DNA of 64,000 nucleotides from Fimbriosthenelais zetlandica (taxonomy: Eukaryota), in the NCBI GenBank assembly GCA_977030845.1, contig OZ365114.1, forward strand, positions 22,010,001 through 22,074,000, given 5' to 3'. Positions 1 to 30,000 of the stretch are shown here, one piece after another. Position 1 is the stretch's first letter; each line of letters begins with the position of its first letter. The position numbers were made by a program.

Positions 1-3000
1 CTTTATATCTGAAATACAGTAGTTGAAATTGTGTGAGAACAAAAACCTAGGCTATGTCTCTAAGGCATTTTTCAAGTTTATTACTTTAATAATATTGTTA
101 TGATGTCTGCTAAAATAGATTGACAGCTGATCAGTTACGTGAAGGTTTACCTTTGTCACAGAGATCCCCTGCCTTGCCCAGTGGACACTGACATGTATAT
201 CCTCCATTTGCAAGAGGTAGACATGTGGATCCTTGAGTACATTCATGAAGGCTGTCACACGGGGTAACACGGTCTCTACATGTAGCACCCGTCCATCCAT
301 CTTCACATTCACACCTGCCAAAAGGGATAAAGAAAATTATGCCATAATACATAGGTATAGGATTGTTATAGAAGTCCTGGGTGAATACGGGACTCTATTT
401 GAGTATAAATCTTGAGTATAAATAGTTATGCTTTTAGGAAGTAGCCTACACATCCCCAAATGAAAAAAAGATATATAGGACTATAGTTTAATAGGACATA
501 GTTTAATAGTATGAGAATTGGTAAAGAGACACTGTTCTATGGGAATCACTGCTGGGGACATGTTCTTCTATAGACCTATTAATTCTGTCATAAATCATTA
601 ATTTCAAGGGCAATACTACTACATTGGTGAAGAGACAGGGCGTGTGAATATGTACTTAATGTATTGCAAAACTGGCTAAGCGTAATATACCGTCATTGTA
701 AATTTAAAAGACCCTTTCATGGGTTTACAACATAATGGTGGGAAAGCGAAATCAAATTTAATGAATGGGAGGGACCTTTTCCCAAGATTGAATCTGCATT
801 ATTTGGATTGATTAAAACCGATAGAATGAATTGTAAAGAATGGGTCTGGCTTACATGAATGTAGCTCCTAGATCAATACATGTCCCTCTGTTCTCACACT
901 GGTTGAGCTGGCATTCTGACTGCTGGCACTGACCAACGTTACGACCAGTCTCTGGCTGACCAGGTGGAGAACCGGGCTTCTTCCACTGACCGTTACTACC
1001 TGTACGCACCTCCAGGTCAAAGATACAACCTATAAAAATAGTCAATGAGTCGAGTTAAGTTTATTGTTAGCCATCGTATATCTTTTCTGACCGGGATATG
1101 CTAAAGCAAAAGCATAAAAAACCATGAAGGACTTTTAGGAATCTTACCCTTAAAGCCTTGGCGGAAGGATATCTCAGTTGGCAGCTGGGTGTCAATGTTG
1201 TCATAGCCTCCCACATAAAGGTTAGAGAATACATTGAGTCCCATCAATCTACCCTGAGATGAGCCTGTCACATTTTGCTGGTTATCTAGACCTAGGTAGC
1301 CAACCTGACGGTCACGTCCAAAGCGGACACGATGAACTTGTCGGCTTCTGTCAATGGGAGAAGTGGTTCTAATGTCAGCCATACCTGAAAGTTGGAAACA
1401 ATTGACCATTGTAACTGTAAGACATTTTGCATGGTAAAAAAATCCCCCAAATTTACAGCACAATTAGTTTGTCCGAATAAGATTGATTTAGAGTGTTGTT
1501 GCAATTGTACTTAACTCTCCCAACACACAATGGCATTGTTTGGTGCAAAGTGAGATCACCTGTTTGAAATCTCAGGAATTGGATGTTCCCTCAAAAACTT
1601 ACAAACCAACCAGAAAAAAACTTTATTACCACAAGGCCCACACTAAAACCGATAATCAAGAGACAGGTCGCCGAGCCTTTCCCTGAAATGTCATAAAACC
1701 CCACCCATGAATCCTGATGGAAAACCTGATTTTCCTGTCCATCTATTGTTGAAAAGAGCAGAGATTGTGGAGATAATCCAGTATATTGGTTGGTTGAAGT
1801 GTCCCTTTAATTTCCTGTCACATTTTACGTGGATCATCCTCTCCCCTGTAGCCTGGCCTATAGCTCGCCATCACGAAGTGCAAACCCCATCCATGACCTG
1901 AAGTCACCTCAGGTCAAACAGATAGACGTTTACATTGATCTTACAGGCATCTCAAATCCTCTACAAACACCCCCTGAGTAACTTTTATTGGCTGATCTTT
2001 TTAACTCTTTCATTGTCCACATAAAGGATCCAACTTGAGGTTGATCTTATTGGGACAAAATGAGATCATCAGTGCCGGTGATATATTAAGGGGACTATCC
2101 TTAGATATCTGATTAACAACATAAACACTAAGATTGTAAAGGCAAGGGGGAAGGCAGTGATAAATAGTCATGGGAAGGGCCAATGTAGGTATTGTAGGAT
2201 TAGTTCAAATGAGTAAAATGAAAATTGTTTCTATTGGATTCTATGATCAATCGCATATCTTCACAATGATCTCAACATCTGTCAGTGAGGCACAATTTAC
2301 ATATGTAAATCTTGTTCAATATCACCAATTGATTAATTTTTTTTGACACACAAAAGAAGCATGGAGTGATACTCTTTTGAAATTTTCTAGAAATCATTGG
2401 AGCAGAACGTGATCACGAGTAACGTCGCCTGACGTCAAACTAGTCTGGCCGTTATGTGTCGAGCCTTTCAGCATTATGCTGTGAGACTAAATCTACCTTG
2501 TCACACACATAGACCATCCATCATCCTCCACAAATATGCACCACGCTTCATTCCAACCTGGTTCACATGACACCACAAGTCCAAGAAAATGCATGAAAAC
2601 TCACATAAATCAAGTCTACTTTTATATCTATAATTCCCTTTCAAAAAATTGACATTAGTTATATATCAGAGTCAACTATGGCGACAACAGGTCATATATT
2701 GGGGACGAGTGAGCAATATGCATATTAAAACAAAAAATAATTTTATATAAAACAAAATCTTCATATAATGATAATGGCCGTAGGGAAAATCAACATTTCA
2801 TATATTCATGTCAGGAACAAGAACTATTGTATTCCGGAGTCGTGCAGTCTGTTTTTTCCAGATGCCCCTGGCACCTTGAAAATTTAGCCTGCCACACAAA
2901 CAATTAGATCCTAAGACAAAAGCAGCCTTGTGCCATCCACCTAAACTATTCATCAGGGCCCACTAAACATGCTAAAGTCATTTAAACAGCTAACCCAGGG

Positions 3001-27000: not shown

Positions 27001-30000
27001 TAATTATGGTCATTCCGATAATCAAGGCTATGGCCAGGGCAACGGGGGCTATTCCCAGGGTGGATATGCTGATCAGGGAGATTATTCTGGGGGTTATGGT
27101 CAGGGAGCACGTAGCTACTCAGAAAATGAACAAGGTGGCTACAACCAAGGTGGCTACAACCAAGGAGATTACAGTCAAGGCGGTTATGGCCATGATGGTG
27201 GCCAGCAGGGTGGTTATGGACAGAATAACGGCCAGCATGGAGACTATGTCCAGGGTTATGGCCAGGCACAGGACGGGGCTAGTTATAGTGGCTATCAACA
27301 AGTAGGTGGAGGACAGGGCTACGGCAACACCAATACAAAAGAGATCTACATCTGAAGGTACAGTAATCCCCAAATTTCTTCTTTATATCACTTGTCTTAA
27401 ACTCATGTTTTAATTTGTAGAATTTCAAACTGAGCTATGAATTGAGTAGGATGAAGGCTATATGGGGATTAATTATTCACAGAAATCCTGATCAGATGCC
27501 AACACATGGGGTGTGGCTTACTCTGAGAACAATACATTTCTTGGCCCTTTCATCCATGAATCGCTGGGGTCAGAAGATGCATTTATGACATGTATCTATA
27601 AATATCTAACGGTACCAATAGGTCCCAGGCTCGAGTGATGAGATTTAACAAAGTATGTTCCTATGACACCATAATTCCAATATTCTAACCATAGTAATTT
27701 TAAGATTATCCAAGATTATCCAAAAGGAAAGGCAGAATACCATTTATTTATAACATTATAATATGCTCGACGAAATGTATTAATTTAGTTCTTTAATTGT
27801 GTTATTTTTTCCTTCTTCAGATACAACTAATAAATTATGATGCTTTTCCAACATCCAAGGAATAGTGGAGGAAAAAAGCTTCCATAACAATTGATATGAC
27901 TTACTAAGTAACACAGAAGATGTCCATCATTTATAGATCTTCAAATTGACTTTCTTTTTGTTGCTGAAAATCTAGGATATCTAACAGTAAAAACATTACT
28001 TGTAACACAGTAATTTTATGAACCTTTTATGTAATATAATTATTCGTATATCACATTTTTTATCGGAAGATTAAAGTTTAAGATAAAAATCAATGGTTTT
28101 GTCATAATTATATAATGTGTATTTAAGTTTAAATAACTTCTATGTTCAGATATGTAATATTCAACCCACCTATAGGGCTGGGGGCAGTCACACACGTACA
28201 TGTCCTCCTTGTCCCTGCACGTACCACCGTTAGTACAGGGACTGGAGGCACACTCATCCACATCCGTCTCACACAACCTGCCTGCAAAACATCAAACCAG
28301 CATTTTTAATTAACATACGCTTCTCATCTTTATTGCTAACGTTTAAGGATTGATTTTGGGGCCAAGTCCTGTTGGGCATACCGAGTAGGTGTGAGGAAGA
28401 ACGTGGCCATGACTTTAATGGCTTGAAATCAGAAGTGATTAAAGTAATCAGTATGCACCGAGGAGGGAATAAGGTGAATGGAAAGGAAGTTGCTATAATA
28501 AAGTAAATCTAATTTGCATACCGACTTGAAAGAGACTTCTTAAAATCACGGTATACGATTAAAATCTAGCATTTTAGCTTTCTACGACCTGATAAATTAA
28601 TAACAAAATTAACTTCATCTACTCACTTTACAATTATTAATTGATAATCTTTATGCGGTTAAGATGTGTTATTTGTGAAGCTTTAATCTTTAAGTTGTAG
28701 TTTGTTAATAATGTTTGGGTCGCGGGTAGCTTAAGCTGCTTGTTTATTGGATGTGGTTTGACAATTAAGACTAAATCTGTTTGATACTTTGATCTGTCCA
28801 GGTTACTTAATATTTGGCTTGGTTGAGCTGATTAGACATGTAATATGGATCCATGCGAAACACACAGAGGTAACATGTAATAGGCAACAGTAATTTATTC
28901 CTGCACTACATATTCTATGGACTATTAGTTCTCGAAAGTATTGTGAAATTAGACCTTTGGGCTTTAAGCCGAATCATTTCATTGGCTTATATGGTTGCAT
29001 TGCTTCAAAATTGGGGTAGGCCTTCGGTATATCCCTGACCTCATTGTTTTCACTGATCTAGCATAGAATTTCTATTCTGTATTTATAAAACTGGTATTGT
29101 TGAATGTTACCTGTGTATCCCGCACGACAGATGCATGTATAGCCATTTACTCCATCTATACATGCAGCACCATTACGACAAGGAGAAGAACTACACTCGT
29201 CCACGTTAGTTTCACATAACAAGCCTGGAAATGTGAATATGAGGTGGAAGAGCGTGAAAAAAAGAACATCATTCAGACACATAGACATGATGGCTTGTAG
29301 TTGAGGTGAGTGTTCCTTTTCACTTCCTGAGAATTGTTGCAATGCAATATAGGTATCCAAAAAACTGCATTTGTCCACTTGAGGTATTGGGTATAGGATA
29401 TCTCGGGATTCAGTGAATTTATGTGCTAGACATAGCAAGCACATCCCATTCTTGCCCAACTGTCAGATGTAATAGTCCAATATTCCAACTTTGCAACACA
29501 CAGCTTTTGAAAACGCTTGTAAACTTCCCACCATCCACTGAATGCATAAAGCTTGACACAAAAACCCCTGAACATAAACAATGGGGGCGTTTATTGGCTA
29601 GCTATGGCTAGACTAACTAAAGTTAATGCCATACATGTATGTTTGGGATTTTCGTTGCTATGACAACGTTTCACACACTCTGCACATCATGCGCATTGTT
29701 CTCAGCCCCTCAGCTGTTCCCTCAAATGTTACTCACTATAGCCATGCTCTTGTGCATTCTAGCCATAATAATATACCCTTCAAACTTGTACAAAAGTTTT
29801 TCTAACAGATTAAAATGATATATGGACTGAAAATGCATTACCAGTAGTACCAGGCAGACAGTCACAACGGTGGCCAGCCAAAAGGTCAACACAGATTCCT
29901 CTATTATAACATGGTGCACTGGCACAGTCATCAAAGTCCTCTGCGCACGTCAAGCCTGAAGTTGAAATAACAATAGTTTTGTCAATTGTTTTTGTCAAAA

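What the first reader, a model, noticed from the sequence alone, without database searches (positions are those of the whole stretch)
1385..28169. Both large EYS introns, and only those, carry antisense nested genes
Seen: 43 of the 45 introns are under 1 kb. The two exceptions (1385-10840, 9.5 kb; 21595-28169, 6.6 kb) hold three plus-strand genes with intronless CDSs. Inference: these introns grew by gene insertion (retroposition or transposition), and antisense nesting may cause mutually exclusive or coordinated expression with EYS through transcriptional interference.
Basis: partly seen in the sequence, partly recalled or inferred. Interest (0 to 1): 0.65.

Follow-up and report, generated by a model that had tools for sequence, protein, structure and literature searches.

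The report
Antisense genes nested in two introns
Three protein-coding genes sit on the opposite strand inside the only two long introns of an eyes-shut-like matrix gene, which is a real but ordinary case of the well-known "gene within a gene" layout.

Summary
A minus-strand EGF/laminin-G gene with an EYS-like layout runs from 36494 to the left edge of the window. Its only two in-window introns over 1 kb are 1385-10840 (9456 nt) and 21595-28169 (6575 nt). Both have GT..AG ends and keep the frame, and the domain continues across each of them.

All plus-strand ATG ORFs of 120 aa or more in 1-30000 lie in these two introns:
- **TRIM-NHL ligase-like gene (664 aa):** intact, with an 81 % identical full-length relative.
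- **Secreted-looking charged protein (551 aa):** has a 38 % identical full-length relative with conserved islands.
- **Gly/Gln/Tyr/Ser repeat protein (356 aa):** has no specific relative.

I found no poly(A) remnant, no target-site duplication and no transposon domain. The ORFs fill only 21 % and 41 % of their introns. Transcriptional interference cannot be tested here. Published surveys of flies and humans already describe this pattern: most nested genes are antisense and lie in unusually long introns. I rate it a new example of a known kind, of low interest.

I do not take the contig for human.

The parts
151..36494 (-). In-window part of the host gene. It is EYS-like: a signal-peptide-like start, about 40 EGF repeats, a 3 kb Ser/Thr-rich exon, then EGF and laminin-G domains in alternation. 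It runs off the left end of the window.
   Evidence: The architecture was read exon by exon. Orthology was not tested with a tree.
1385..10840 (-). Host intron A, 9456 nt, phase 1. It splits the third laminin-G domain.
   Evidence: GT..AG ends and frame. Laminin_G_2 profile 17-38 before it and 53-111 after it. Recovered in 4 of 12 retrained model runs.
10841..10921 (-). Host exon just upstream of intron A (laminin-G).
1148..1384 (-). Host exon just downstream of intron A (laminin-G).
   Evidence: Laminin_G_2, E 2.5e-6.
8523..10517 (+). Nested gene 1: TRIM-NHL protein, 664 aa, coding sequence in one piece.
   Evidence: RING, B-box and NHL domains. 81 % identity over all 664 residues to P0005, 54 % to P0006, 51 % to P0007. 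NHL region matches solved Thin, TRIM2, TRIM3 and TRIM71 structures at E 3e-38 to 1e-30.
21595..28169 (-). Host intron B, 6575 nt, phase 2. It splits one EGF repeat.
   Evidence: Recovered in 12 of 12 retrained model runs.
28170..28281 (-). Host exon just upstream of intron B (EGF).
21473..21594 (-). Host exon just downstream of intron B (EGF).
23590..25245 (+). Nested gene 2: 551 aa protein rich in Arg, Ser, Asp and Lys, with a signal-peptide-like start. Coding sequence in one piece.
   Evidence: One relative, P0050 (504 aa, E 1.4e-33). It aligns end to end at 38 % identity, with conserved islands. No Pfam family.
23512..23518 (+). TATA-like motif 78 nt upstream of the start codon of gene 2.
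   Evidence: Such motifs occur about once per 700-1200 nt on this strand, so this is weak evidence.
25645..25650 (+). AATAAA, 400 nt after the stop codon of gene 2.
26285..27355 (+). Nested gene 3 (less certain): 356 aa, Gly 32 %, Gln 18.5 %, Tyr 13 %, Ser 11.5 %, with a signal-peptide-like start.
   Evidence: Only low-complexity matches were found. The frame stays open for 127 codons on either side of the repeat.
26666..26974 (+). Tandem array of 21 nt x 14.7 copies, 96 % matches, inside gene 3 (heptad QGSYGQG).
26192..26198 (+). TATATAA, 93 nt upstream of the start codon of gene 3.
27829..27834 (+). AATAAA, 474 nt after the stop codon of gene 3 and 336 nt before the next host exon.

Best explanation
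These are ordinary nested genes. Three independent protein-coding genes, each with an uninterrupted coding sequence, lie on the opposite strand inside the two long introns of an EYS-like extracellular-matrix gene.

Shown:
- The intron boundaries.
- The intact ORFs.
- Conservation of two of the three proteins in other organisms.

Inferred:
- Each gene is transcribed from its own promoter. Genes 2 and 3 have TATA-like motifs 78 and 93 nt upstream of the start codon, and AATAAA 400-474 nt after the stop.
- The host pre-mRNA removes the nested genes with the intron.

The TRIM-NHL gene most likely encodes a RING E3 ligase with an NHL propeller. Genes 2 and 3 most likely encode secreted, disordered, fast-evolving proteins.

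The layout most likely arose by DNA-level insertion or by origin in place within the introns. It was probably kept in antisense orientation because same-strand nesting disturbs host splicing, as argued for Drosophila. No special regulatory link to the host is required.
For: - Splice sites, frame and domain continuity across both introns.
- Only 2 of 40 modelled introns exceed 1 kb.
- ORFs of 664, 551 and 356 aa, against shuffle maxima of 248 and 193 aa.
- TRIM-NHL domains and an 81 % identical full-length relative.
- Gene 2 aligns end to end with P0050, with 16- and 8-residue identical islands.
- TATA-like and AATAAA motifs.
- Literature passages read:
  - In Drosophila 71 % of nested genes are antisense, and introns with nested genes have a median of 4826 nt against 138 nt without (PMC3814207).
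  - In humans about two-thirds are antisense and 41 % are single-exon (PMC3192792; PMC4394429).
Against: - No transcript data, so promoters, transcript ends and expression are inferred only.
- Gene 3 has no specific relative. 2002 hits at E <= 0.001 were counted and the best 150 listed. The 150 best-stretch coordinates centre on the query's repeat region, though a few run past it, and my follow-up found no relative of the flanks. Tandem repeats can hold frames open by themselves. Only 4 substitutions distinguish the repeat units, 3 synonymous and 1 not in this frame, which is too few to test.
- No TATA-like motif lies within 200 nt upstream of the TRIM start.
- The intron A junction was recovered in only 4 of 12 model runs.
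- The host's EYS identity rests on architecture alone.
Confidence: 0.8

Rival explanations
1. The nested genes are processed retrocopies, or transposon-borne insertions, and these made the introns long.
For: All three coding sequences are uninterrupted. The relatives P0005 and P0006 start at about the same residue as the window's TRIM protein. In Drosophila most nested structures are reported to arise by insertion or by origin in place (PMC3814207, passage citing Assis et al. 2008).
Against: - No poly(A) remnant after any stop.
- No convincing target-site duplication or terminal inverted repeat.
- No transposon-type Pfam domain in 10 other intron-A ORFs.
- Genes 2 and 3 carry TATA-like motifs directly upstream, which retrocopies normally lack.
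- The ORFs explain only 21 % and 41 % of the intron length.
- An old insertion would have lost these marks, so this rival is weakened, not excluded.
Confidence: 0.15
2. The third ORF (26285-27355) is not a gene. It is an open frame kept open by a young tandem repeat.
For: - The 21-nt array is 96 % uniform and leaves three frames open on both strands.
- The search found only low-complexity matches. No listed protein shares the N- or C-terminal parts specifically.
- No Pfam family.
Against: - The frame stays open for 127 codons on each side of the array, with the same Gly/Gln/Tyr composition.
- It starts with a hydrophobic signal-peptide-like stretch (judged by eye).
- It has TATATAA 93 nt upstream and AATAAA 474 nt downstream.
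- At 356 aa it exceeds the maximum of 193 aa in 200 shuffles, although shuffling destroys the repeat.
Confidence: 0.3
3. The antisense nesting has a selected regulatory role. Nested-gene transcription represses or is coordinated with the host, or TRIM transcripts read antisense through host exons.
For: The first canonical AATAAA or ATTAAA after the TRIM stop is at 11276, beyond two host exons (10841-10921 and 11096-11269). Reviews propose inverse regulation of antisense nested pairs (PMC4394429, passage).
Against: - Variant signals CATAAA and TATAAA lie within 125 nt after the TRIM stop (read), so a short 3' end is equally possible.
- No expression data here.
Confidence: 0.12
4. The two long intervals are assembly errors that join unrelated sequence.
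For: None found.
Against: No N in the window. The exons on either side of each interval complete the same laminin-G or EGF domain in frame.
Confidence: 0.03

Closest known systems
Antisense nested genes in long host introns (Drosophila survey, Lee & Chang 2013, PMC3814207; human NF1 intron holding OMG, EVI2A and EVI2B, as described in PMC4394429)
   Same: Protein-coding genes lie wholly inside an intron of a large multi-exon host, on the opposite strand. They sit in introns far longer than the host's others. There can be several per intron. The nested genes have few or no introns, and gene 2 appears to evolve fast (38 % identity, where the TRIM gene keeps 81 % to a relative from the same kind of source).
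   Different: No expression or synteny data exist here. A search for 'EYS' with 'nested gene' found 6 papers, none on this topic by title or abstract.
TRIM-NHL proteins (TRIM2, TRIM3, TRIM71, Drosophila Thin/TRIM32, Brat)
   Same: RING, B-box and NHL propeller in the same order. The NHL region matches their solved structures.
   Different: Named relatives are only 20-25 % identical over the full length, so it is not an orthologue of any named member. The filamin domain (PF00630) listed for many TRIM2/3-like hits did not appear in the Pfam scan of this protein.
EYS / eyes shut / spacemaker
   Same: Signal-peptide-like start, dozens of EGF repeats, a Ser/Thr-rich middle, and then laminin-G domains alternating with one or two EGF repeats. 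Zebrafish EYS has 47 predicted exons, 39 EGF and 5 laminin-G domains (PMC5155541, passage).
   Different: Only three laminin-G domains lie in the window, because the gene runs off it. The locus is very compact (median intron about 140 nt), whereas zebrafish EYS spans 450 kb and the title of a reference listed in that paper gives 2 Mb for the human gene. The first ~190 residues match no Pfam family. A Crumbs-like gene is not formally excluded.

Membership tests
Nested (intronic) gene within a host gene | The whole coding sequence lies inside one host intron. | tested here: met
   The ORFs 8523-10517, 23590-25245 and 26285-27355 lie inside 1385-10840 and 21595-28169.
Nested (intronic) gene within a host gene | The host intron is genuine: splice sites, frame and domain continuity. 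| tested here: met
   Recovered by the model in 12 of 12 runs (intron B) and 4 of 12 runs (intron A).
Nested (intronic) gene within a host gene | An independent transcription unit with its own promoter and polyadenylation site. | tested here: inconclusive
   TATA-like and AATAAA motifs exist for genes 2 and 3. No TATA-like motif lies within 200 nt of the TRIM start. No RNA data.
Processed retrogene | Poly(A) tract remnant and flanking target-site duplication. | tested here: not met
   No A-run of 9 or more and no A-rich 25-mer after any stop. Only short, chance-level direct repeats.
Processed retrogene | An intron-containing parent gene elsewhere in the genome. | not testable with these tools
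   No eukaryotic genome collection was on hand. Genome contigs holds only bacteria and archaea and was not used.
TRIM-NHL E3 ligases | N-terminal RING finger. | tested here: met
   PF00097, residues 17-59, E 7.5e-6, 26.2 bits against a cutoff of 21.
TRIM-NHL E3 ligases | B-box zinc finger(s). | tested here: met
   PF00643, 2 stretches, E 2.1e-9. PF22586, residues 96-140.
TRIM-NHL E3 ligases | Coiled coil between the B-box and the C-terminal domain. | not tested
   No coiled-coil predictor was run. Residues 6-245 align to the TRIM28 RBCC structure 6h3a at E 2.9e-15, which is only indirect support.
TRIM-NHL E3 ligases | C-terminal NHL beta-propeller. | tested here: met
   PF01436, E 3.1e-10. Solved NHL domains of Thin, TRIM2, TRIM3 and TRIM71 match at E 3.4e-38 to 1.3e-30.
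EYS / eyes shut | Many EGF repeats followed by laminin-G domains alternating with EGF repeats. | tested here: met
   EGF hits. Laminin_G hits in 5 of 10 C-terminal exons scanned, four at E 2.5e-6 to 0.0016 and one weak at 0.091. The order is LamG, EGF, LamG, 2 EGF, LamG, 2 EGF.
EYS / eyes shut | Five laminin-G domains and a secreted C-terminus without a membrane anchor. | not testable with these tools
   The gene runs off the window after the third laminin-G domain.
EYS / eyes shut | Orthology to named EYS proteins by sequence or tree. | tested here: inconclusive
   The exon-1 search saw only proteins of 446-2000 aa and hit Crumbs-like or unnamed EGF proteins over the EGF part. The Atlas gave only a 0.88 lead to an EGF cluster.

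The most novel reading that the evidence does not exclude
The nest is functional, not incidental. Transcripts of the TRIM-NHL gene would run on past weak polyadenylation signals and read antisense through two laminin-G exons of the host; the first canonical signal is at 11276. The two secreted low-complexity genes would fire in cells where the matrix gene is silent. The three nested genes and the host would then form a mutually exclusive switch conserved in related species.
Probability: 0.08. Interest if true: 0.4.

Novelty: new member of a known kind. Interest (0 to 1): 0.15.

Why it matters
Its main use is for annotation. The host's two long introns hold real genes that a gene caller could miss or fuse. 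One of them, the Gly/Gln/Tyr repeat ORF, needs transcript support. The locus is a compact, easily assayed example for anyone studying host and nested-gene expression. It opens no long-standing question, because the layout, the strand bias and the link to long introns are already documented genome-wide in flies and humans.

Tried and rejected
- **tblastn of P0001-P0004 against the window.** EGF repeats matched everywhere, so this gave no usable exon map.
- **First exon-chaining run.** It over-split the gene into 229 exons. Untrained runs with higher penalties missed exons.
- **Exon-1 search for longer proteins.** It was limited to 446-2000 aa, so full-length EYS proteins could not appear.
- **Atlas searches.** One lead of 0.88 for the host N-terminus and no usable hit for gene 2.
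- **Exhaustive search with gene 3 and follow-up.** Only repeat-driven matches. P0059 and P0196 share the repeat but have unrelated N-terminal parts.
- **BLASTP of gene 2 against P0050.** With composition correction it showed only a 48-residue match. The MAFFT alignment showed the islands.
- **Pfam on 10 other ORFs of intron A.** 0 credible hits. One AmoC match at E 0.017 was below its cutoff.
- **Rfam at gathering scores and ARAGORN.** Nothing in either intron.
- **Repeat searches for insertion marks.** Nothing convincing.
- **Papers.** Assis et al. 2008 and Kumar 2009 were not held. They are cited only through other papers' words.

Not checked:
- The collections metagenome contigs and viral contigs, which are closed.
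- Any eukaryotic genome for synteny.
- Paper supplements, which are closed and were not needed.
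Full report
**What the window is.**
- The window has no N and about 40 % G+C.
- I do not take it for human, for three reasons:
  - The host gene's introns have a median near 140 nt.
  - The closest relatives of the one well-conserved nested protein are unnamed records.
  - The best named relatives come from lancelets, acorn worms and an annelid, at about 20-25 % identity.
- I did not try to name the organism or any sample.

**The host gene.**
- On the minus strand a gene starts at 36494 with a signal-peptide-like stretch, judged by eye.
- It continues through dozens of EGF repeats and a single 3 kb Ser/Thr-rich exon (18282-15263).
- It then shows the order EGF, laminin-G, EGF, laminin-G, two EGF, laminin-G, two EGF.
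- The last exon in the window (314-151) ends at a donor site, so the gene continues beyond the left edge.
- This layout agrees with EYS as described for zebrafish: 47 predicted exons, 39 EGF and 5 laminin-G domains (PMC5155541, passages). My recollection of the human domain order also agrees, but that comes from no call.
- Orthology is not shown:
  - The exon-1 search could only see proteins of 446-2000 aa and hit Crumbs-like or unnamed EGF proteins over the EGF part.
  - The Atlas gave only a 0.88 lead.
The joined protein was never built or searched. This leaves orthology open.

**The two long introns.**
- The exon before 1385-10840 matches Laminin_G_2 profile positions 17-38 (E 0.091). The exon after it matches positions 53-111 (E 2.5e-6). 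The residues in between fill the 14 missing positions, so no host exon is missing from the 9.5 kb.
- The exon before 21595-28169 ends within an EGF repeat, and the next exon carries on with the Gly and Cys of the same repeat.
- I wrote an exon-chaining model using codon log-odds, splice-site matrices, open frames and phase tracking. After retraining, at penalty -8 it gives 41 exons. 38 of its 40 introns are under 1 kb (median 138.5, largest 930, 838, 829).
- The model is not robust in every detail. Over 12 retrained runs:
  - The 6575-nt intron was found in 12 of 12.
  - The 9456-nt intron was found in 4 of 12.
  - In 5 of 12 the 81-nt exon next to it was skipped.
  - In 3 of 12 an 82-nt exon with no domain was placed antisense to the TRIM ORF.
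- The Pfam spacing argument favours the 9456-nt reading.
- The model also missed about five clear EGF or laminin-G segments.

**Nested gene 1 (8523-10517, plus strand).**
- It is a 664-aa TRIM-NHL protein with a RING finger, B-boxes and an NHL propeller.
- Its NHL region matches the solved NHL domains of Thin, TRIM2, TRIM3 and TRIM71 at E 3.4e-38 to 1.3e-30.
- It is 81 % identical (90 % similar) over all 664 residues to P0005. It is 54 % identical to P0006 at full coverage and 51 % to the shorter P0007 over 89 % of its length.
- P0006 starts at about the same residue. P0005 carries 15 extra N-terminal residues that resemble the window's closed upstream sequence.
- I take this as a functional gene with its coding sequence in one exon.
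- No TATA-like motif lies within 200 nt upstream.
- A pyrimidine-rich stretch ending in AG lies 12 nt before the start codon, so an untranslated upstream exon is possible. This is inference.

**Nested gene 2 (23590-25245, plus strand).**
- It encodes 551 aa rich in Arg, Ser, Asp and Lys, with a hydrophobic start.
- It has no Pfam family.
- One relative was found, P0050 (504 aa, E 1.4e-33).
- Composition-corrected BLASTP shows little similarity. MAFFT aligns the two proteins end to end at 38 % identity, with identical islands of 16 and 8 residues and matching termini.
- This looks like a real, fast-evolving secreted protein.
- ATATAAA lies 78 nt before the start codon, and AATAAA lies 400 nt after the stop.

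**Nested gene 3 (26285-27355, plus strand).**
- It encodes 356 aa: Gly 32 %, Gln 18.5 %, Tyr 13 % and Ser 11.5 %.
- It contains a 21-nt array of 14.7 copies at 96 % matches.
- The exhaustive search gave 2002 hits at E <= 0.001. For the 150 listed, the best-stretch coordinates centre on the repeat region. None shares the flanking parts specifically.
- The array leaves other frames open on both strands.
- In favour of a gene:
  - 127 open codons on each side of the array, with the same composition.
  - A signal-peptide-like start.
  - TATATAA 93 nt upstream and AATAAA 474 nt downstream.
- I put this one at about 0.6-0.7.

**Chance.**
- The longest ORFs of the two introns (664 and 551 aa) exceed every one of 200 dinucleotide shuffles per intron (maxima 248 and 193 aa).
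- TATA-like motifs occur about once per 700-1200 nt on the plus strand, so two of them within 100 nt of two starts is only mild support.

**How the introns became long.**
- I looked for marks of retroposition or transposition and found none:
  - No A-run of 9 or more and no A-rich stretch after any stop.
  - Only short repeats of 14-27 nt at 68-100 % identity around the genes.
  - No dispersed repeat of 60 nt or more in either intron, other than the array itself.
  - No credible Pfam domain in 10 further ORFs of intron A.
  - No Rfam or tRNA gene in either intron.
- The ORFs take 21 % of intron A and 41 % of intron B. 7138 nt upstream of the TRIM ORF have no assigned content.
- Insertion therefore remains possible but is not shown, and the ORFs alone do not account for the intron lengths.
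- In Drosophila, host genes have long introns even after nested sequence is subtracted. The authors conclude that mutational input into large targets decides where nested genes sit (PMC3814207, passages).

**Regulation.** Nothing here tests interference.
- The first canonical polyadenylation signal after the TRIM stop lies beyond two host exons. However, CATAAA and TATAAA variants lie within 125 nt of the stop.
- Published evidence is mixed:
  - The Drosophila survey found nested pairs less correlated than neighbouring genes, but similar to random pairs (PMC3814207).

**Comparison and verdict.**
- The layout matches the textbook picture:
  - About 10 % of fly genes and about 1 % of human genes are nested.
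  - Two-thirds or more of these are antisense.
  - 41 % of human nested genes are single-exon.
  - The NF1 intron holds three antisense coding genes (PMC4394429 and PMC3192792, passages).
- A search for 'EYS' with 'nested gene' returned 6 papers, none on this subject by title or abstract. So this locus is a new example, not a new kind.
- Interest is low.

Noticed in passing
window 35900-36494 (-): The first ~190 residues of the host protein, after the signal-peptide-like start, contain several cysteines. They match no Pfam family; only the EGF part of this exon matched. The Atlas gave only a 0.88 lead to an EGF cluster.
   Followed up: partly
window 15263-18282 (-): A single 3020-nt host exon encodes about 900 residues of Ser/Thr/Pro-rich, mucin-like sequence between the EGF block and the laminin-G block.
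   Followed up: no
window 57258-59078 (+): An open frame of 606 codons carries all three multicopper-oxidase domains: Cu-oxidase_3 at E 1.2e-31, Cu-oxidase at E 1.8e-20 and Cu-oxidase_2 at E 9.7e-28. It looks like a laccase-type gene with a large single exon. Whether it relates to the Tyr-rich nested protein is pure speculation.
   Followed up: no
window 49709-50504 (+): Two adjacent copies of about 430-450 nt at 76.5 % identity form a local tandem duplication outside the host gene.
   Followed up: no
window 47912-47982 (-): Rfam tRNA match at 30.3 bits, just above the gathering score of 29 (E 0.026). ARAGORN found no tRNA in the window. It may be a degenerate tRNA or a tRNA-derived element.
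   Followed up: partly
window 51151-51870 (-) and 45841-46293 (-): Two further open frames, of 240 and 151 codons. The first has no Pfam family. The second has a hydrophobic stretch that looks like a membrane span. They are probably exons of neighbouring genes upstream of the host.
   Followed up: no
P0059 and P0196 (library proteins): Two unnamed proteins carry nearly the same Gly-Gln-Gly-Ser/Asn-Tyr heptad repeat as nested gene 3, but behind an unrelated, mutually similar N-terminal domain. The repeat may be shared by descent or may have arisen independently.
   Followed up: partly
window 23815-23957 (+): Inside nested gene 2, a 12/24-nt tandem array (79-88 % matches) encodes the repeated Asp-Met-Asp-Arg-Gly-Lys-Glu-Arg stretch. 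That stretch is absent from the relative P0050.
   Followed up: partly
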